Source: Escherichia coli
Lineage (GTDB): Bacteria > Pseudomonadota > Gammaproteobacteria > Enterobacterales > Enterobacteriaceae
Length of the DNA stretch: 64,000 bases
Direction: 5' to 3' (one strand)
NCBI RefSeq assembly: GCF_030013205.1
Contig: NZ_CP122648.1
The notes under the pieces were generated by a model, which was not told the origin of the DNA, did no database searches, and worked only from the letters and a program-made list of their open reading frames with translations. Positions 55,033-64,000 of the stretch are shown here, one piece after another; the first letter of the stretch is position 1; every line of letters begins with the position of its first letter. Both the position numbers and the translations under genes were made by a program.

Positions 55033-55854
55033 ATGGCTAAAGCAAACTCTTCATTTTCTGAAGTGCAAATTGCCCGTCGTATTAAAGAGGGGCGTGGCCA
55101 AGGGCATGGTAAAGACTATATTCCATGGCTAACAGTACAAGAAGTTCCTTCTTCAGGTCGTTCCCACCGTATTTATTCTCATAAGACGGGACGAGTCCAT
55201 CATTTGCTATCTGACTTAGAGCTTGCTGTTTTTCTCAGTCTTGAGTGGGAGAGCAGCGTGCTAGATATACGCGAGCAGTTCCCCTTATTACCTAGTGATA
55301 CCAGGCAGATTGCAATAGATAGTGGTATTAAGCATCCTGTTATTCGTGGTGTAGATCAGGTTATGTCTACTGATTTTTTAGTGGACTGCAAAGATGGTCC
55401 TTTTGAGCAGTTTGCTATTCAAGTCAAACCTGCAGCAGCCTTACAAGACGAGCGTACCTTAGAAAAACTAGAACTAGAGCGTCGCTATTGGCAGCAAAAG
55501 CAAATTCCTTGGTTCATTTTTACTGATAAAGAAATAAATCCCGTAGTAAAAGAAAATATTGAATGGCTTTATTCAGTGAAAACAGAAGAAGTTTCTGCGG
55601 AGCTTTTAGCACAACTATCCCCATTGGCCCATATCCTGCAAGAAAAAGGAGATGAAAACATTATCAATGTCTGTAAGCAGGTTGATATTGCTTATGATTT
55701 GGAGTTAGGCAAAACATTGAGTGAGATACGAGCCTTAACCGCAAATGGTTTTATTAAGTTCAATATTTATAAGTCTTTCAGGGCAAATAAGTGTGCAGAT
55801 CTCTGTATTAGCCAAGTAGTGAATATGGAGGAGTTGCGCTATGTGGCAAATTAA
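55033..55854 (+). CDS. tnsA: Tn7 transposase subunit TnsA (endonuclease-like)
   Basis: 273 aa; MAKANSSFSEVQIARRIKEGRGQGHGKDYIPWLTVQEVPS. Confidence 0.9.
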   Translation: MAKANSSFSEVQIARRIKEGRGQGHGKDYIPWLTVQEVPSSGRSHRIYSHKTGRVHHLLSDLELAVFLSLEWESSVLDIREQFPLLPSDTRQIAIDSGIKHPVIRGVDQVMSTDFLVDCKDGPFEQFAIQVKPAAALQDERTLEKLELERRYWQQKQIPWFIFTDKEINPVVKENIEWLYSVKTEEVSAELLAQLSPLAHILQEKGDENIINVCKQVDIAYDLELGKTLSEIRALTANGFIKFNIYKSFRANKCADLCISQVVNMEELRYVAN

Positions 55855-57949
55855 TGAGGTTGTGCTATTTGATAATGATCCGTATCGCATTTTGGCTATA
55901 GAGGATGGCCAAGTTGTCTGGATGCAAATAAGCGCTGATAAAGGAGTTCCACAAGCTAGGGCTGAGTTGTTGCTAATGCAGTATTTAGATGAAGGCCGCT
56001 TAGTTAGAACTGATGACCCTTATGTACATCTTGATTTAGAAGAGCCGTCTGTAGATTCTGTCAGCTTCCAGAAGCGCGAGGAGGATTATCGAAAAATTCT
56101 TCCTATTATTAATAGTAAGGATCGTTTCGACCCTAAAGTCAGAAGCGAACTCGTTGAGCATGTGGTCCAAGAACATAAGGTTACTAAGGCTACAGTTTAT
56201 AAGTTGTTACGCCGTTACTGGCAGCGTGGTCAAACGCCTAATGCATTAATTCCTGACTACAAAAACAGCGGTGCACCAGGGGAAAGACGTTCAGCGACAG
56301 GAACAGCAAAGATTGGCCGAGCCAGAGAATATGGTAAGGGTGAAGGAACCAAGGTAACGCCCGAGATTGAACGCCTTTTTAGGTTGACCATAGAAAAGCA
56401 CCTGTTAAATCAAAAAGGTACAAAGACCACCGTTGCCTATAGACGATTTGTGGACTTGTTTGCTCAGTATTTTCCTCGCATTCCCCAAGAGGATTACCCA
56501 ACACTACGTCAGTTTCGTTATTTTTATGATCGAGAATACCCTAAAGCTCAGCGCTTAAAGTCTAGAGTTAAAGCAGGGGTATATAAAAAAGACGTACGAC
56601 CCTTAAGTAGTACAGCCACTTCTCAGGCGTTAGGCCCTGGGAGTCGTTATGAGATTGATGCCACGATTGCTGATATTTATTTAGTGGATCATCATGATCG
56701 CCAAAAAATCATAGGAAGACCAACGCTTTACATTGTGATTGATGTGTTTAGTCGGATGATCACGGGCTTTTATATCGGCTTTGAAAATCCGTCTTATGTG
56801 GTGGCGATGCAGGCTTTTGTAAATGCTTGCTCTGACAAAACGGCCATTTGTGCCCAGCATGATATTGAGATTAGTAGCTCAGACTGGCCGTGTGTAGGTT
56901 TGCCAGATGTGTTGCTAGCGGACCGTGGCGAATTAATGAGTCATCAGGTCGAAGCCTTAGTTTCTAGTTTTAATGTGCGAGTGGAAAGTGCTCCACCTAG
57001 ACGTGGCGATGCTAAAGGCATAGTGGAAAGCACTTTTAGAACACTACAAGCCGAGTTTAAGTCCTTTGCACCTGGCATTGTAGAGGGCAGTCGGATCAAA
57101 AGCCATGGTGAAACAGACTATAGGTTAGATGCATCTCTGTCGGTATTTGAGTTCACACAAATTATTTTGCGTACGATCTTATTCAGAAATAACCATCTGG
57201 TGATGGATAAATACGATCGAGATGCTGATTTTCCTACAGATTTACCGTCTATTCCTGTCCAGCTATGGCAATGGGGTATGCAGCATCGTACAGGTAGTTT
57301 AAGGGCTGTGGAGCAAGAGCAGTTGCGAGTAGCGTTACTGCCTCGCCGAAAGGTCTCTATTTCTTCATTTGGCGTTAATTTGTGGGGTTTGTATTACTCG
57401 GGGTCAGAGATTCTGCGTGAGGGTTGGTTGCAGCGGAGCACTGATATAGCTAGACCTCAACATTTAGAAGCGGCTTATGACCCAGTGCTGGTTGATACGA
57501 TTTATTTGTTTCCGCAAGTTGGCAGCCGTGTATTTTGGCGCTGTAATCTGACGGAACGTAGTCGGCAGTTTAAAGGTCTCTCATTTTGGGAGGTTTGGGA
57601 TATACAAGCACAAGAAAAACACAATAAAGCCAATGCGAAGCAGGATGAGTTAACTAAACGCAGGGAGCTTGAGGCGTTTATTCAGCAAACCATTCAGAAA
57701 GCGAATAAGTTAACGCCCAGTACTACTGAGCCCAAATCAACACGCATTAAGCAGATTAAAACTAATAAAAAAGAAGCCGTGACCTCGGAGCGTAAAAAAC
57801 GTGCGGAGCATTTGAAGCCAAGCTCTTCAGGTGATGAGGCTAAAGTTATTCCTTTCAACGCAGTGGAAGCGGATGATCAAGAAGATTACAGCCTACCCAC
57901 ATACGTGCCTGAATTATTTCAGGATCCACCAGAAAAGGATGAGTCATGA
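55841..57949 (+). CDS. tnsB: Tn7 transposase subunit TnsB (DDE transposase)
   Basis: 702 aa; overlaps the tnsA 3' end; central DDE/RNase-H-like region. Confidence 0.9.
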
Positions 57950-59613
57950 GTGCTACCCGGATTCAAGCAGTTTATCGTGATACGGGGGTAGAGGCTTATC
58001 GTGATAATCCTTTTATCGAGGCCTTACCACCATTACAAGAGTCAGTGAATAGTGCTGCATCACTGAAATCCTCTTTACAGCTTACTTCCTCTGACTTGCA
58101 AAAGTCCCGTGTTATCAGAGCTCATACCATTTGTCGTATTCCAGATGACTATTTTCAGCCATTAGGTACGCATTTGCTACTAAGTGAGCGTATTTCGGTC
58201 ATGATTCGAGGTGGCTACGTAGGCAGAAATCCTAAAACAGGAGATTTACAAAAGCATTTACAAAATGGTTATGAGCGTGTTCAAACGGGAGAGTTGGAGA
58301 CATTTCGCTTTGAGGAGGCACGATCTACGGCACAAAGCTTATTGTTAATTGGTTGTTCTGGTAGTGGGAAGACGACCTCTCTTCATCGTATTCTAGCCAC
58401 GTATCCTCAGGTGATTTACCATCGTGAACTCAATGTAGAGCAGGTGGTGTATTTGAAAATAGACTGCTCGCATAATGGTTCGCTAAAAGAAATCTGCTTG
58501 AATTTTTTCAGAGCGTTGGATCGAGCCTTGGGCTCGAACTATGAGCGTCGTTATGGCTTAAAACGTCATGGTATAGAAACCATGTTGGCTTTGATGTCGC
58601 AAATAGCCAATGCACATGCTTTAGGGTTGTTGGTTATTGATGAAATTCAGCATTTAAGCCGCTCTCGTTCGGGTGGATCTCAAGAGATGCTGAACTTTTT
58701 TGTGACGATGGTGAATATTATTGGCGTACCAGTGATGTTGATTGGTACCCCTAAAGCACGAGAGATTTTTGAGGCTGATTTGCGGTCTGCACGTAGAGGG
58801 GCAGGGTTTGGAGCTATATTCTGGGATCCTATACAACAAACGCAACGTGGAAAGCCCAATCAAGAGTGGATCGCTTTTACGGATAATCTTTGGCAATTAC
58901 AGCTTTTACAACGCAAAGATGCGCTGTTATCGGATGAGGTCCGTGATGTGTGGTATGAGCTAAGCCAAGGAGTGATGGACATTGTAGTAAAACTTTTTGT
59001 ACTCGCTCAGCTCCGTGCGCTAGCTTTAGGCAATGAGCGTATTACCGCTGGTTTATTGCGGCAAGTGTATCAAGATGAGTTAAAGCCTGTGCACCCCATG
59101 CTAGAGGCATTACGCTCGGGTATCCCAGAACGCATTGCTCGTTATTCTGATCTAGTCGTTCCCGAGATTGATAAACGGTTAATCCAACTTCAGCTAGATA
59201 TCGCAGCGATACAAGAACAAACACCAGAAGAAAAAGCCCTTCAAGAGTTAGATACCGAAGATCAGCGTCATTTATATCTGATGCTGAAAGAGGATTACGA
59301 TTCAAGCCTGTTAATTCCCACTATTAAAAAAGCGTTTAGCCAGAATCCAACGATGACAAGACAAAAGTTACTGCCTCTTGTTTTGCAGTGGTTGATGGAA
59401 GGCGAAACGGTAGTGTCAGAACTAGAAAAGCCCTCCAAGAGTAAAAAGGTTTCGGCTATAAAGGTAGTCAAGCCCAGCGACTGGGATAGCTTGCCTGATA
59501 CGGATTTACGTTATATCTATTCACAACGCCAACCTGAAAAAACCATGCATGAACGGTTAAAAGGGAAAGGGGTAATAGTGGATATGGCGAGCTTATTTAA
59601 ACAAGCAGGTTAG
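57946..59613 (+). CDS. tnsC: Tn7 transposition regulator TnsC (AAA+ ATPase)
   Basis: 555 aa; Walker [11 protein letters not shown]; ATGA overlap with tnsB. Confidence 0.9.
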
Positions 59614-59615
59614 CC

Positions 59616-61142
59616 ATGAGAAACTTTCCTGTTCCGTACTCGAATGAGCTGATTTATAGCACTATTGCACGGGCAGGCGTTTATCAAGGGATTGTTAGTC
59701 CTAAGCAGCTGTTGGATGAGGTGTATGGCAACCGCAAGGTGGTCGCTACCTTAGGTCTGCCCTCGCATTTAGGTGTGATAGCAAGACATCTACATCAAAC
59801 AGGACGTTACGCTGTTCAGCAGCTTATTTATGAGCATACCTTATTCCCTTTATATGCTCCGTTTGTAGGCAAGGAGCGCCGAGACGAAGCTATTCGGTTA
59901 ATGGAGTACCAAGCGCAAGGTGCGGTGCATTTAATGCTAGGAGTCGCTGCTTCTAGAGTTAAGAGCGATAACCGCTTTAGATACTGCCCTGATTGCGTTG
60001 CTCTTCAGCTAAATAGGTATGGGGAAGCCTTTTGGCAACGAGATTGGTATTTGCCCGCTTTGCCATATTGTCCAAAACACGGTGCTTTAGTCTTCTTTGA
60101 TAGAGCTGTAGATGATCACCGACATCAATTTTGGGCTTTGGGTCATACTGAGCTGCTTTCAGACTACCCCAAAGACTCCCTATCTCAATTAACAGCACTA
60201 GCTGCTTATATAGCCCCTCTGTTAGATGCTCCACGAGCGCAAGAGCTTTCCCCAAGCCTTGAGCAGTGGACGCTGTTTTATCAGCGCTTAGCGCAGGATC
60301 TAGGGCTAACCAAAAGCAAGCACATTCGTCATGACTTGGTGGCGGAGAGAGTGAGGCAGACTTTTAGTGATGAGGCACTAGAGAAACTGGATTTAAAGTT
60401 GGCAGAGAACAAGGACACGTGTTGGCTGAAAAGTATATTCCGTAAGCATAGAAAAGCCTTTAGTTATTTACAGCATAGTATTGTGTGGCAAGCCTTATTG
60501 CCAAAACTAACGGTTATAGAAGCGCTACAGCAGGCAAGTGCTCTTACTGAGCACTCTATAACGACAAGACCTGTTAGCCAGTCTGTGCAACCTAACTCTG
60601 AAGATTTATCTGTTAAGCATAAAGACTGGCAGCAACTAGTGCATAAATACCAAGGAATTAAGGCGGCAAGACAGTCTTTAGAGGGTGGGGTGCTATACGC
60701 TTGGCTTTACCGACATGACAGGGATTGGCTAGTTCACTGGAATCAACAGCATCAACAAGAGCGTCTGGCACCCGCCCCTAGAGTTGATTGGAACCAAAGA
60801 GATCGAATTGCTGTACGACAACTATTAAGAATCATAAAGCGTCTAGATAGTAGCCTTGATCACCCAAGAGCGACATCGAGCTGGCTGTTAAAGCAAACTC
60901 CTAACGGAACCTCTCTTGCAAAAAATCTACAGAAACTGCCTTTGGTAGCGCTTTGCTTAAAGCGTTACTCAGAGAGTGTGGAAGATTATCAAATTAGACG
61001 GATTAGCCAAGCTTTTATTAAGCTTAAACAGGAAGATGTTGAGCTTAGGCGCTGGCGATTATTAAGAAGTGCAACGTTATCTAAAGAGCGGATAACTGAG
61101 GAAGCACAAAGATTCTTGGAAATGGTTTATGGGGAAGAGTGA
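59616..61142 (+). CDS. tnsD: Tn7 target-site selector TnsD (attTn7/glmS recognition)
   Basis: 508 aa; MRNFPVPYSNELIYSTIARAG; Cys/His zinc-finger-like CPDC...CPKHG. Confidence 0.9.
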   Translation: MRNFPVPYSNELIYSTIARAGVYQGIVSPKQLLDEVYGNRKVVATLGLPSHLGVIARHLHQTGRYAVQQLIYEHTLFPLYAPFVGKERRDEAIRLMEYQAQGAVHLMLGVAASRVKSDNRFRYCPDCVALQLNRYGEAFWQRDWYLPALPYCPKHGALVFFDRAVDDHRHQFWALGHTELLSDYPKDSLSQLTALAAYIAPLLDAPRAQELSPSLEQWTLFYQRLAQDLGLTKSKHIRHDLVAERVRQTFSDEALEKLDLKLAENKDTCWLKSIFRKHRKAFSYLQHSIVWQALLPKLTVIEALQQASALTEHSITTRPVSQSVQPNSEDLSVKHKDWQQLVHKYQGIKAARQSLEGGVLYAWLYRHDRDWLVHWNQQHQQERLAPAPRVDWNQRDRIAVRQLLRIIKRLDSSLDHPRATSSWLLKQTPNGTSLAKNLQKLPLVALCLKRYSESVEDYQIRRISQAFIKLKQEDVELRRWRLLRSATLSKERITEEAQRFLEMVYGEE

Positions 61143-62759
61143 GTGGTTAGGCTAGCTACATTTAATGACAATGTGCAGGTTGTACATATTGGTCATTTAT
61201 TCCGTAACTCGGGTCATAAGGAGTGGCGTATTTTTGTTTGGTTTAATCCAATGCAAGAACGGAAATGGACTCGATTTACTCATTTGCCTTTATTAAGTCG
61301 AGCTAAGGTGGTTAACAGTACAACAAAGCAAATAAATAAGGCGGATCGTGTGATTGAGTTTGAAGCATCGGATCTTCAACGAGCCAAAATAATCGATTTT
61401 CCTAATCTCTCGTCCTTTGCTTCCGTACGCAACAAGGATGGAGCGCAGAGTTCATTTATTTACGAAGCTGAAACACCATATAGCAAGACTCGTTATCACA
61501 TCCCACAGTTAGAGCTAGCTCGGTCATTATTTTTAATTAACTCCTATTTCTGTCGAAGCTGTTTGAGCAGTACCGCTTTACAGCAAGAGTTCGACGTTCA
61601 GTATGAGGTTGAGCGAGATCATTTAGAGATAAGGATCTTACCCAGTTCATCGTTTCCTAAAGGGGCGTTAGAGCAGTCGGCCGTAGTGCAGCTTTTGGTT
61701 TGGTTGTTTTCGGATCAAGATGTTATGGATTCGTATGAAAGTATTTTTAGGCACTATCAACAAAATAGAGAAATTAAGAACGGCGTTGAAAGCTGGTGCT
61801 TTAGCTTTGACCCTCCGCCCATGCAGGGTTGGAAATTACATGTAAAAGGACGTTCTTCTAACGAGGATAAGGATTATTTAGTTGAGGAAATAGTAGGTTT
61901 AGAAATCAACGCTATGCTTCCTAGCACAACAGCTATTAGCCATGCCTCTTTTCAGGAAAAGGAGGCAGGTGATGGTAGTACGCAGCACATAGCGGTTTCA
62001 ACAGAGTCAGTTGTTGATGATGAGCATCTACAGTTGGACGATGAGGAAACAGCCAATATAGACACAGACACACGAGTCATAGAGGCTGAGCCGACATGGA
62101 TAAGTTTTAGTAGACCTAGTCGAATTGAAAAATCTCGCAGGGCAAGAAAAAGTAGCCAAACTATTTTAGAAAAAGAAGAAGCAACAACAAGTGAAAATAG
62201 TAATTTGGTTAGTACTGATGAGCCACACTTAGGTGGTGTCCTAGCAGCGGCAGATGTGGGTGGGAAGCAGGATGCAACCAATTACAACTCTATTTTTGCT
62301 AATCGATTTGCTGCTTTTGATGAGCTACTTTCAATTCTAAAAACTAAATTTGCATGTCGGGTGCTTTTTGAAGAAACCTTGGTTTTGCCAAAAGTTGGGC
62401 GTAGCCGATTACATCTGTGTAAAGATGGCTCACCAAGAGTGATTAAAGCCGTTGGGGTGCAACGTAATGGCAGTGAATTTGTATTGCTAGAGGTGGATGC
62501 ATCGGATGGGGTGAAAATGCTTTCTACCAAAGTGTTGAGTGGCGTTGATAGCGAAACATGGCGGAATGATTTTGAAAAGATACGGCGTGGAGTGGTGAAG
62601 AGCTCATTGAATTGGCCAAATAGTTTGTTTGATCAATTATATGGACAAGACGGGCATAGAGGGGTGAATCATCCAAAGGGGTTGGGGGAGCTGCAAGTAT
62701 CGAGAGAGGATATGGAAGGGTGGGCTGAGAGAGTGGTTAGAGAGCAATTTACGCATTAA
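61143..62759 (+). CDS. tnsE: Tn7 alternative target selector TnsE
   Basis: 538 aa; GTG start immediately after the tnsD stop. Confidence 0.85.
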   Translation: MVRLATFNDNVQVVHIGHLFRNSGHKEWRIFVWFNPMQERKWTRFTHLPLLSRAKVVNSTTKQINKADRVIEFEASDLQRAKIIDFPNLSSFASVRNKDGAQSSFIYEAETPYSKTRYHIPQLELARSLFLINSYFCRSCLSSTALQQEFDVQYEVERDHLEIRILPSSSFPKGALEQSAVVQLLVWLFSDQDVMDSYESIFRHYQQNREIKNGVESWCFSFDPPPMQGWKLHVKGRSSNEDKDYLVEEIVGLEINAMLPSTTAISHASFQEKEAGDGSTQHIAVSTESVVDDEHLQLDDEETANIDTDTRVIEAEPTWISFSRPSRIEKSRRARKSSQTILEKEEATTSENSNLVSTDEPHLGGVLAAADVGGKQDATNYNSIFANRFAAFDELLSILKTKFACRVLFEETLVLPKVGRSRLHLCKDGSPRVIKAVGVQRNGSEFVLLEVDASDGVKMLSTKVLSGVDSETWRNDFEKIRRGVVKSSLNWPNSLFDQLYGQDGHRGVNHPKGLGELQVSREDMEGWAERVVREQFTH

Positions 62760-62989
62760 AGGAATGACTGAAAGAGCCTGTAAACCCTTTTGTGTAAGTG
62801 CTTTTGCCGGTCAGTTAAAGGTGGCCATTTAAACGGTCACCAAATTCGATCATAAAACGGTTCATGGCCGGCTTCCAGTTGCGGATCGGCATCGTCCATT
62901 TCTTGGTCGCCGCCTGGATAGCCAGGTACACCACCTTCATCGCTGATTCGTCCGTAGGGAACACCTTGAGTTCATATTAATGGAATTTT

Positions 62990-63367
62990 CTACAAATAGC
63001 CTCCGTGGTTTTGAGGGGGGATTACAGACGATCCATAGTAGTAATCCAATGAGTTCTTGAGCGCGGCGACATGTTTGGACGCCTTGGCAAAAATTAGAGC
63101 CTGCTTGAAGTGCAGGCGAGCACGTGCTTGGACGATTGATCCATTCGCGGTCAAAAACTCAATCTTGGATGACAGCGTGTCAGGAAATCCAATATCGAAG
63201 TCCCGCCCCGTGTCAAAGTAGGGCATTTCATGATCAAAGGACGAAGCTTCCCAGGCCACTTCCCTAATATTCCAGCCGCTAGAAACAAGATTTCGTACGA
63301 CTTCATCAACTTTTTTGCTTTCCAACTTGTCACAAAGTGCATAGGCAAGAGCTTTGGCGGCAGACAC
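62990..63367 (-). CDS. Tn7-borne hypothetical protein (125 aa), convergent to tnsE
   Basis: GTG start with AAGAGGA SD; position matches the Tn7 backbone genes between tnsE and the cassette region. Confidence 0.5.
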   Translation of the reverse strand: MSAAKALAYALCDKLESKKVDEVVRNLVSSGWNIREVAWEASSFDHEMPYFDTGRDFDIGFPDTLSSKIEFLTANGSIVQARARLHFKQALIFAKASKHVAALKNSLDYYYGSSVIPPQNHGGYL

Positions 63368-63420
63368 GTGCGTTTCCTCTTAAACATAGGTCGAACGGAT
63401 ACCCGAGGCAAAGCGGAGCA

Positions 63421-63744
63421 TTAGTCCCAAAGCATCTCCGGTAGATCCGGAGGCTCCATACTGAAGGCATGGCATCTTGGGCATTGATATTTGAAACTTC
63501 TCTCTAGATAGCAGGGATTTCTTGGCCTTGCCTCATGCTGATAGCTTGTAAATATCACACGATCCTTAGCCCCACAAAGTGAGCATACTCCGTAGCTTTC
63601 ATTTATAGAAATCGTCGTTAGATTGTCGCAGCATGTGCACGTTCCGACTATTTGCTCAGGAAGCATCGCCATACCTTGGCCTAGGTAAAGAAGATCAGAC
63701 TCGTAGCCACATCGGTGGCAACTGAGCTTGTACGCAATGCCCAT
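63421..63744 (-). CDS. Tn7-borne Cys-rich (zinc-ribbon-like) hypothetical protein (107 aa)
   Basis: CHRCGYE...CTCC...CSLCG...CPRCH cysteine pairs; GGTGAGA SD. Confidence 0.5.
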   Translation of the reverse strand: MGIAYKLSCHRCGYESDLLYLGQGMAMLPEQIVGTCTCCDNLTTISINESYGVCSLCGAKDRVIFTSYQHEARPRNPCYLERSFKYQCPRCHAFSMEPPDLPEMLWD

Positions 63745-63776
63745 CTGGTTGTCTCACCTGAATCGTAACGTCAGAG

Positions 63777-64000
63777 CTATTCATCCATCCATTCGGCATC
63801 AATGTATGCCACTAAGCCGACCAGCTGACCGTTTGGACTGAAGTATGTTGCCTGCACCCCACTTGACATCTCATCAATACCACCGCACTGCGCTAGGCGC
63901 CGGTCCCACTTGCCCACAGAAGCGTCAGGATCGGCTGAGTTCCCCAAGACCCTTGTGAGCCATGCCTCCTTTAACTCAACCTCTCGAATGATTGCGTCGG
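63777..64000 (-). CDS. Tn7-borne hypothetical protein, 3' end only (ORF enters from beyond window end)
   Basis: Minus-strand frame open from 64000 down to TAG at 63777-63779; C-terminus ...GQLVGLVAYIDAEWMDE. Confidence 0.4.
   Translation of the reverse strand, partial: DAIIREVELKEAWLTRVLGNSADPDASVGKWDRRLAQCGGIDEMSSGVQATYFSPNGQLVGLVAYIDAEWMDE

What the first reader, a model, noticed from the sequence alone, without database searches (positions are those of the whole stretch)
62990..64000. Convergent three-gene cluster inside Tn7 after tnsE, including a Cys-rich protein
Minus-strand genes at 63777..beyond 64000, 63421..63744 and 62990..63367 each have a strong SD and are closely spaced, reading toward tnsE. 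The middle product has four Cys pairs in a zinc-ribbon arrangement. They are probably the conserved Tn7 backbone ORFs of unknown function, but I cannot confirm identity without a database, and Tn7-family elements are known carriers of variable cargo.
Basis: inference. Interest (0 to 1): 0.35.

Follow-up and report, generated by a model that had tools for sequence, protein, structure and literature searches.

The report
Tn7 backbone genes ybfA-ybfB-ybgA
These three small genes are the already catalogued ybfA, ybfB and ybgA of the resistance transposon Tn7, identical to the reference copy, and they look like leftover integron gene cassettes that ride along rather than a new working system.

Summary
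Window 55033-64000 matches Tn7 of plasmid R721 with 0 mismatches in 8,968 bases. The three products are exactly UniRef YbgA (Q9F564), YbfB (Q9F565) and YbfA (Q9F566). This is the ordinary, published segment aadA1-ybeA(orfX)-ybfA-ybfB-ybgA-tnsE, inserted at attTn7 downstream of glmS in an E. coli chromosome.

Details added here:
- **YbfB is a real protein.** Ten relatives at 32-50% identity keep all eight Cys of four CxxC pairs. The model is confident (pLDDT 89). It matches no curated family and has no structural neighbour. None of the four annotated records inspected lists it.
- **The three families do not travel together outside Tn7.** YbfA-like and YbfB-like genes occur in metagenomes as separate integron cassettes flanked by aadA1-type attC sites. 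In Tn7 no attC survives between them, so they are best read as fossil cassettes of the class 2 integron.
- **Tn7 ybgA looks cut short.** It lacks about 35-40 C-terminal codons that both full-length relatives share, and it abuts a 200-bp remnant of an IS256-family element next to tnsE.

The biochemical function of all three remains unknown. Interest is low.

The parts
62771..62972 (-). About 200-bp remnant of the 3' end of an IS256-family insertion sequence. It holds the last ~50 codons of the transposase (stop at 62815) plus the IS terminus, and ends 12 bp from the tnsE stop codon.
   Evidence: blastn matches of 69-74% to annotated IS256-family elements cover query 12-213 of window 62760-64000. 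tblastn gives 60-74% identity to IS256-family transposase C-termini, starting at 'KVFPTDES'. PGAP annotates it as an 'IS256 family transposase, incomplete, missing N-terminus' pseudogene.
62990..63367 (-). ybgA (125 aa; WP_001271300.1; UniRef Q9F564). Apparently truncated at its 3' end by about 35-40 codons.
   Evidence: Exact-sequence match named YbgA and annotated CDS. Homology to P0029 covers residues 1-119 only. The two full-length relatives align with each other over all 159 residues, including a conserved tail AY[VL]TRTIS.G.D..VYCVGN that Tn7 lacks.
63421..63744 (-). ybfB (107 aa; UniRef Q9F565). A stand-alone protein with four conserved CxxC pairs, inferred to form two Cys4 zinc-ribbon sites.
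   Evidence: Exact-sequence match named ybfB. Ten diverged homologues of 93-129 aa have C9, C12, C36, C39, C54, C57, C88 and C91 invariant. AlphaFold2 gives pLDDT 89.3, all-beta, with three of the four CxxC pairs at hairpin turns. Not annotated in any of the four records inspected.
63777..64000 (-). 3' two-thirds of ybfA (full gene 124 codons, to the equivalent of window 64148; WP_000119696.1; UniRef Q9F566).
   Evidence: Ten homologues at 56-75% identity share a strongly conserved C-terminus, GGIDEMSSGVQATYFSPNGQLV..DAEWMDD. AlphaFold2 gives pLDDT 83.
61143..62759 (+). tnsE, the last gene of the Tn7 transposition module (tnsABCDE, 55033..62759), convergent with the three ORFs. Context only.

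Best explanation
The segment is the canonical stretch of Tn7 between tnsE and the class 2 integron cassette array: a truncated IS256-family remnant, a truncated ybgA, ybfB, ybfA, and then (outside the window) ybeA/orfX, aadA1, sat2, dfrA1 and intI2*.

Shown here:
- It is identical to reference Tn7.
- All three ORFs encode real, conserved proteins.
- The three families occur separately elsewhere.
- YbfA-like and YbfB-like genes exist as attC-flanked integron cassettes whose attC sites are of the same type as the Tn7 aadA1 attC.
- In Tn7 no attC is left between the three ORFs.
- Tn7 ybgA lacks the conserved C-terminal tail and abuts an IS fragment.

Inferred:
[quoted passage not shown] They lost their attC sites, as the neighbouring 'pseudocassette' ybeA partly did, and were frozen in place. 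An IS256-family-associated deletion then made the present junction with the tns module.
- They have no sigma-70-like promoter of their own by a consensus scan, and they point the same way as the array. Any expression is therefore most likely read-through from the integron Pc promoters.
- They play no part in transposition. They are hitch-hiking cargo, not a three-gene machine.
- YbfB most likely folds around two Zn2+ ions (C9/C12/C36/C39 and C54/C57/C88/C91). As a stand-alone 12-kDa zinc-ribbon protein it would act by binding a protein or nucleic-acid partner rather than by catalysis. The partner is unknown.
- YbgA in Tn7 is probably inactive.
For: - **Identity:**
- **Published order and 'function unknown' status:** PMC8858760, PMC3332091, and PMC5559693 for orfX as a pseudocassette with an incomplete attC.
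- **Real proteins:**
- **Not linked outside Tn7:** tblastn of all four Tn7 proteins against every fetched locus.
- **Cassette status of relatives:** in L008/L009 a YbfA-like gene sits in an array of nine attC-type repeats with ParDE and Phd/ParE cassettes. In L019 a YbfB-like gene is flanked by attC sites, and the downstream site folds like the aadA1 attC.
- **No attC left in Tn7:** the only attC-like inverted repeat in L001 9000-11100 is that of aadA1. A mini-relic TCTAAT-AAAAT-GTTAGGC follows ybeA.
- **ybgA truncation and IS remnant:**
- **No promoter-like site in 62600-64000:**
- **No match to curated defence, phage or general protein families:**
- **Transposition:** that Tn7 needs only TnsABC plus TnsD or TnsE and the element ends is established knowledge of the Tn7 system, not tested here.
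Against: - The cassette origin rests on one environmental array type for YbfA (seen in several samples) and one contig for YbfB.
- No YbgA relative was seen in a cassette. Its two relatives sit in a phage-like context (L018, next to DUF2800) and an uninformative one (L003).
- The truncation of ybgA rests on two full-length relatives only.
- Tight spacing and good ribosome-binding sites are also what an operon would show.
- A 173/176-aa protein family lies just upstream of the YbfA-like gene in L008 and of the YbfB-like gene in L012. This could hint at a functional link between the families.
- Read-through expression was not measured, and the promoter scan is a crude consensus test.
- Zinc binding is inferred from sequence and a predicted model only.
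Confidence: 0.8

Rival explanations
1. The three genes, perhaps with ybeA, form one co-selected functional module of Tn7, for example a small toxin-antitoxin, phage-defence or anti-defence operon that helps the transposon or its host.
For: The genes point the same way, are spaced 32 and 53 nt apart, and each has a Shine-Dalgarno motif. They are retained without change in 91 E. coli genomes and 33 plasmid records that hold a near-full-length match. Relatives lie in accessory contexts: next to PbeC of a Pbe/Dnd-type defence locus (L005), after a sacsin-type ATPase (L013), and near a weak match to the MPTase-PolyVal metallopeptidase domain (L012); that this domain marks ArdC-type anti-restriction proteins of conjugative elements is recalled, not tested. 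One 173/176-aa family precedes a YbfA-like gene in one locus and a YbfB-like gene in another. Integron cassettes of unknown function have been shown to encode phage defence (bioRxiv 10.1101/2024.07.02.601719).
Against: No locus outside Tn7 holds two of the three families together. There are no PADLOC, PHROGs, Pfam or NCBIfam matches. ybgA appears truncated. Invariance among Tn7 copies reflects recent spread of one element, not selection. In L008 the 173-aa ORF and the YbfA-like gene are separated by half an attC, so they were separate cassettes. The paper on mobile-integron defence cassettes does not mention class 2 integrons, Tn7 or these ORFs.
Confidence: 0.1
2. The ORFs assist or regulate Tn7 transposition or target choice, since they sit directly after tnsE.
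For: Position only: they lie inside the element, adjacent to and convergent with tnsE.
Against: They belong by orientation and neighbours to the integron cassette side of Tn7, not to the tns operon. An IS remnant separates them from tnsE. Relatives of YbfA, YbfB and YbgA are found without any tns gene nearby. It is established for Tn7 that TnsABC+D/E and the ends suffice for transposition (not tested here). A reported Tn7-derived class 2 integron has lost ybeA, ybfA, ybfB and tnsABCDE through an IS1R-mediated deletion (PMC3332091).
Confidence: 0.03
3. One or more of the ORFs, especially the unannotated Cys-rich one, are chance reading frames and not genes.
For: ybfB is not annotated in any of the four records inspected, and ybfA is also missing in one of them. 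A word-index search of 5.8 billion proteins found no diverged YbfB relative.
Against: An exhaustive HMMER search found ten full-length relatives at 32-50% identity with eight invariant Cys, a conserved MG start and a conserved WD end. The structure model is confident. One relative is the sole ORF of an attC-bounded cassette. YbfA and YbgA likewise have diverged homologues of conserved length.
Confidence: 0.02

Closest known systems
Canonical Tn7 (R721 / NC_002525.1) ORFs ybfA, ybfB, ybgA, the '3' end' of class 2 integrons
   Same: Identical nucleotide and protein sequence, and the same order and position between aadA1-ybeA and tnsE (PMC8858760; PMC3332091).
   Different: Nothing differs. This is that element, inserted at attTn7 downstream of glmS in an E. 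coli chromosome.
Integron gene cassettes and the class 2 'pseudocassette' orfX/ybeA
   Same: The ORFs point the same way as the cassette array, are small, and have no consensus-type promoter of their own. YbfA-like and YbfB-like relatives are bona fide attC-flanked cassettes with aadA1-type attC sites. Like orfX, they have lost a functional attC (PMC5559693).
   Different: No attC, and not even a recognisable relic, lies between ybfA, ybfB and ybgA in Tn7. They cannot be excised or shuffled by an integrase. YbgA relatives were not seen in cassettes.
Zinc-ribbon proteins (for example the TFIIS/RPA12/RpoM C-terminal ribbon, ribosomal bL32/bL33, Zn_ribbon_LapB)
   Different: No curated family reaches its threshold. 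No solved or viral predicted structure matches the whole fold. Two ribbons sit in one 107-aa stand-alone protein with its own conserved MG start and WD end.
IS256-family insertion sequences
   Same: The 62771-62972 segment is 69-74% identical in DNA and 60-74% in protein to the 3' end of annotated IS256-family elements.
   Different: Only about 200 bp survive. The N-terminal ~85% of the transposase (my estimate from the usual size of IS256-family transposases, not measured here) and the other end are absent, so it is dead.

Membership tests
Canonical Tn7 backbone ORFs ybgA / ybfB / ybfA | Sequence identity to the reference Tn7 (R721) ORFs | tested here: met
   0 mismatches in 8,968 bases against NC_002525.1. 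Exact-sequence matches to UniRef Q9F564, Q9F565 and Q9F566.
Canonical Tn7 backbone ORFs ybgA / ybfB / ybfA | Position and order: tnsE, then ybgA, ybfB, ybfA, ybeA, aadA1, sat2, dfrA1, intI2*, with the element at attTn7 after glmS | tested here: met
   Annotated regions of R721 and of E. coli 2013C-4465. The window upstream holds atp-glmU-glmS. The order is as published.
Integron gene cassette | An attC recombination site (imperfect inverted repeat, R''...R' with GTTRRRY) at the 3' end of each gene | tested here: not met
   The only attC-like inverted repeat in L001 9000-11100 is that of aadA1. The 32-nt and 53-nt intergenic gaps are too short and hold no core-site pair.
Integron gene cassette | Same orientation as the array, downstream of attI/Pc, and no promoter of its own | tested here: met
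   All on the strand of dfrA1-sat2-aadA1-ybeA. 0 promoter-like sites were found against 1.6 expected; this is a crude consensus scan.
Integron gene cassette | Family members elsewhere are bounded by attC sites in cassette arrays | tested here: met
   Met for YbfA (L008-L011) and YbfB (L019). Not seen for YbgA (L003 and L018).
Zinc-ribbon protein (YbfB) | Two pairs of CxxC knuckles at beta-hairpin turns, conserved across the family | tested here: met
   Eight Cys are invariant in 11 sequences at 32-50% identity. In the model, strands flank C9/C12, C36/C39 and C88/C91. Which Cys share a metal is inferred, because model coordinates were not inspected.
Zinc-ribbon protein (YbfB) | Match to a curated zinc-ribbon family above its threshold | tested here: not met
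   Best Pfam hit is Zn_ribbon_LapB at 21.6 bits against a cutoff of 25.7. NCBIfam gave none.
Zinc-ribbon protein (YbfB) | Binds zinc | not testable with these tools
   Needs metal analysis of purified protein.
Known anti-phage defence or toxin-antitoxin systems | Profile match to a known component | tested here: not met
   PADLOC: no hit below E 0.04 for any of the four proteins. Pfam and NCBIfam gave none.
Known anti-phage defence or toxin-antitoxin systems | Conserved co-occurrence of the component genes in unrelated genomes | tested here: not met
   No fetched locus outside Tn7 holds two of the three families.
IS256-family insertion sequence (segment 62771-62972) | Homology to the IS256-family transposase and terminus | tested here: met
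   and the PGAP pseudogene call.
IS256-family insertion sequence (segment 62771-62972) | Complete transposase gene and two inverted-repeat ends | tested here: not met
   Only the last ~50 codons and one end are present.

The most novel reading that the evidence does not exclude
YbfB founds an undescribed family of stand-alone double zinc-ribbon proteins, with eight invariant Cys, no curated family and no structural neighbour. The family circulates as a single-gene integron cassette and turns up in accessory or DNA-metabolism contexts: next to a weak match to a metallopeptidase domain that I recall from ArdC-type anti-restriction proteins, after a sacsin-type ATPase, and between recA and recX. 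It, and perhaps YbfA, could be a minimal one-protein effector of phage defence, anti-defence or DNA-damage tolerance. If so, every Tn7 spreads it together with its resistance genes, unnoticed because current annotation omits the gene.
Probability: 0.1. Interest if true: 0.5.

Novelty: already known. Interest (0 to 1): 0.12.

Why it matters
As found, it matters little. It is the textbook Tn7 backbone, so the window holds no new system here.

Three small points have some value:
- **Annotation.** A real, conserved gene (ybfB) carried by one of the most widespread resistance transposons is missing from every annotated record inspected here (R721 and two E. coli RefSeq records, plus GenBank plasmid pG527). 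ybfA is sometimes missing too.
- **History of Tn7.** The ORFs behind aadA1 appear to be fossil cassettes. The join to the tns module bears an IS256-family scar and a truncated gene. This bears on how the class 2 integron and the Tn7 transposition module came together.
- **Untested function.** Integron cassettes of unknown function have recently been shown to encode phage defence. These ubiquitous but untested ORFs are cheap candidates for the same assays.

Tried and rejected
- **Curated family searches.** Pfam, NCBIfam, PADLOC and PHROGs gave nothing above threshold for YbgA, YbfB, YbfA, ybeA or the IS fragment.
- **Word-index search for YbfB.** It returned only Tn7 copies and frameshifted assemblies. 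P0013, at 54% identity, is a frameshift chimera, and L004 is Tn7 with long-read errors. I therefore used the single exhaustive HMMER search on YbfB, which found the true relatives.
- **Fold searches.**
  - YbfB against viral BFVD: best E 1.1.
  - The afdb50 library was not available.
- **PDB sequence searches.** Only weak zinc-ribbon echoes for YbfB. For YbfA, a sub-threshold resemblance of residues 74-111 to a single WD40 blade. Nothing for YbgA.
- **Wider scans.** The YbfA family gave no relatives in viral contigs or in one genome per 100,044 species. The YbfB alignment was too variable to make search patterns.
- **Other features in the region.** Rfam found nothing in 62500-64000. One terminator-like hairpin inside ybgA (63117-63099) is no more than chance gives.
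- **Conserved downstream partner for YbgA.** Rejected: the ORFs after the two relatives are unrelated to each other.
- **ybeA as a relative of the 173/176-aa family** seen upstream of YbfA-like and YbfB-like genes. Rejected: no similarity.
- **Literature.** No paper in the library assigns a function to ybfA, ybfB or ybgA. The mobile-integron defence paper does not mention them.

Full report
**What is there.** The ORF listing and the sequence confirm three co-directional minus-strand ORFs.
- 62990..63367: 125 aa, GTG start.
- 63421..63744: 107 aa, ATG start.
- 63777 to beyond the window end.

Each is preceded by a Shine-Dalgarno-like motif. The gaps between genes are 32 nt and 53 nt. All three read towards tnsE (61143..62759, + strand), the last gene of tnsABCDE (55033..62759). 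The middle product has CxxC pairs at 9/12, 36/39, 54/57 and 88/91.

**Identity.** Window 62700-64000 is 100.0% identical over its full length to Tn7 on plasmid R721 (NC_002525.1), and to many other plasmids from ten or more genera. Ninety-one complete E. coli genomes hold a match of at least 99% identity over at least 80% of it. Window 55033-64000 has 0 mismatches in 8,968 bases against R721.

The three products are exact-sequence matches to UniRef entries YbgA (Q9F564), ybfB (Q9F565) and ybfA (Q9F566), each seen on at least 1,000 contigs. In R721 the third ORF has 124 codons and ends at the equivalent of window 64148. It is followed by ybeA/orfX, aadA1, sat2, dfrA1 and the defective intI2.

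The order aadA1-ybeA-ybfA-ybfB-ybgA is as published, with function stated as unknown (PMC8858760; PMC3332091). orfX/ybeA is described as a pseudocassette with an incomplete attC (PMC5559693). The window itself is E. coli chromosome: the atp operon, glmU and glmS, with Tn7 at attTn7.

**Are they genes?** Yes, all three.
- **YbfB.** The word-index search gave only Tn7 copies and frameshifted assemblies. The exhaustive HMMER search over 1.84 billion representatives found ten full-length relatives of 93-129 aa at 32-50% identity. In their alignment all eight paired Cys, the N-terminal MG and the C-terminal WD are invariant or nearly so. AlphaFold2 on that alignment gives pLDDT 89.3, an all-beta fold with three of the four CxxC pairs at hairpin turns. 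I infer two Cys4 zinc sites, C9/C12/C36/C39 and C54/C57/C88/C91.
- **YbfA.** Ten relatives at 56-75% identity share a very conserved C-terminus, and the model has pLDDT 83.
- **YbgA.** Two diverged relatives at 57-59% identity.

None of the four annotated records I inspected lists ybfB: RefSeq R721, two E. coli RefSeq chromosomes and GenBank plasmid pG527. One of them also lacks ybfA.

**Is it a system?** The evidence says no. I fetched the contigs that encode diverged relatives and searched them with all four Tn7 proteins. No locus outside Tn7 holds two of the three families.
- **YbfA-like genes.** One lies in an environmental integron array (L008/L009, also L010/L011). That array has nine attC-type repeats and ParDE and Phd/ParE cassettes. 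Another lies just after PbeC of a Pbe/Dnd-type locus (L005-L007).
- **YbfB-like genes.**
  - In L019 the gene is the sole ORF of a cassette bounded by attC sites. The downstream site folds like the aadA1 attC.
  - In L013 it follows a sacsin-type ATPase.
  - In L017 it lies between recA and recX.
  - In L012 it sits among small ORFs near a weak match to the MPTase-PolyVal metallopeptidase domain.
  - In the remaining loci it stands alone.
- **YbgA-like genes.** One sits next to a DUF2800 phage-type gene (L018). The other is in an uninformative context (L003).

The attC sites of L008 and L019 are of the same sequence type as the Tn7 aadA1 attC, CTAACAATTCG...CGGCTTAACTCAGGCGTTAG.

Within Tn7 the only attC-like inverted repeat between tnsE and aadA1 is that of aadA1 itself. 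After ybeA there is a mini-relic, TCTAAT-AAAAT-GTTAGGC. ybfA starts 38 nt beyond that core site, much as its relative in L008 starts 44 nt after a half attC. The simplest reading is that ybfA and ybfB were independent cassettes at the distal end of the class 2 array and lost their attC sites. They are not an operon selected as a unit. The origin of ybgA is less clear.

**The junction with the tns module.** The two full-length YbgA relatives align with each other over all 159 residues. This includes a conserved tail, AY[VL]TRTIS.G.D..VYCVGN. Tn7 YbgA matches them only to about residue 119 and stops at 125.

About 20 nt further on begins a ~200-bp remnant of an IS256-family element at 62771-62972. 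It holds the last ~50 transposase codons plus the terminus, and ends 12 bp from the tnsE stop (PGAP pseudogene). I infer that a deletion associated with that IS removed the end of ybgA and most of the IS, creating the present join. With only two relatives this is moderately supported.

**How it works (committed view).** The segment is passive cargo. There is no sigma-70-like promoter in 62600-64000 by a consensus scan (0 found, 1.6 expected). The genes point the same way as the cassette array, so expression, if any, is most likely read-through from the integron Pc promoters. This is inferred and not measured.

The genes are not needed for transposition. That is established knowledge of Tn7, where TnsABC plus TnsD or TnsE and the ends suffice. 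It fits with their relatives never being next to tns genes. YbfB is most likely a two-zinc binding module that acts by binding a macromolecular partner, which is unknown. YbgA in Tn7 is probably inactive.

**Rivals.**
- **A co-selected three-gene module (0.1).** It is favoured only by spacing and by the accessory or defence-like neighbourhoods of some relatives. A 173/176-aa family also precedes a YbfA-like gene in L008 and a YbfB-like gene in L012 (E 2e-13). In L008, however, half an attC separates the two genes, so they were separate cassettes.
- **A role in transposition (0.03)** and **chance ORFs (0.02).** Both are contradicted by the evidence above.

**Novelty and score.** The finding is already known: it is the canonical Tn7 backbone. 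It shows that ybfB is a real Cys8 family missed by annotation, gives direct evidence for the cassette ancestry of ybfA and ybfB, and identifies the truncated ybgA and IS256 scar. Interest is 0.12. The most novel reading not excluded is that YbfB, and perhaps YbfA, is a one-protein defence, anti-defence or DNA-damage factor spread by every Tn7 (probability about 0.1).

Noticed in passing
window 63421-63744 (and 63777-64148 in L024): ybfB has no CDS in any of the four annotated records inspected: RefSeq R721, two E. coli chromosomes and plasmid pG527. ybfA is also missing in E. coli FDAARGOS_536. Both have conserved homologues, so this is an annotation gap in a very common element.
   Followed up: yes
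window 62771-62972: A dead ~200-bp 3' remnant of an IS256-family element lies 12 bp after the tnsE stop. It abuts a ybgA that lacks the conserved C-terminal ~35-40 residues of its relatives. This is a possible scar of the event that joined the integron part of Tn7 to the tns module.
   Followed up: partly
L008 620-1141 and L012 2993-3523: An uncharacterised 173/176-aa protein family (24% identity, E 2e-13, C-terminal WW motif, no Pfam hit) lies directly upstream of a YbfA-like gene in one locus and of a YbfB-like gene in another. This could reflect a shared cassette pool or a functional link.
   Followed up: partly
L017 2-1444: A YbfB-like gene (40% identity) sits between recA and recX in one metagenomic contig. 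This is an unusual insertion into a normally tight gene pair.
   Followed up: no
L005 270-4770 (also L006, L007): A YbfA-like gene (58% identity) follows PbeC (PADLOC E 2e-102) and a 125-aa ORF. It precedes an 831-aa protein with RNA polymerase alpha-CTD and sigma-70 region 4 domains. The neighbourhood looks like a defence island.
   Followed up: partly
YbfA residues 74-111 (window 63816-63929, minus strand): The conserved C-terminus of YbfA (SSGVQATYFSPNGQLVGLVAYIDAEW) resembles a single WD40 repeat blade in a PDB profile search (2ymu, whole-sequence E 1.7e-5, but no single stretch passes). It matches the three-stranded sheet of the predicted model.
   Followed up: no
L001 10510-11007 (equivalent to window 64209-64706, outside the window): ybeA/orfX encodes a signal peptide followed by about six tandem S-N-Y-D-N-type repeats and a C-terminal domain. 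It looks like a secreted or surface protein and has no family match.
   Followed up: no
L001 14518-14757 (Tn7 left part, outside the window): PGAP annotates a 79-aa 'BrxA family protein' between intI2* and the left end of Tn7. This may be a fragment of a BREX-type defence gene inside Tn7.
   Followed up: no
L018 127-1604: A full-length YbgA-like gene lies in a tight gene string directly upstream of a DUF2800 (phage-type nuclease family) gene. This suggests a prophage early-region context for that family.
   Followed up: no
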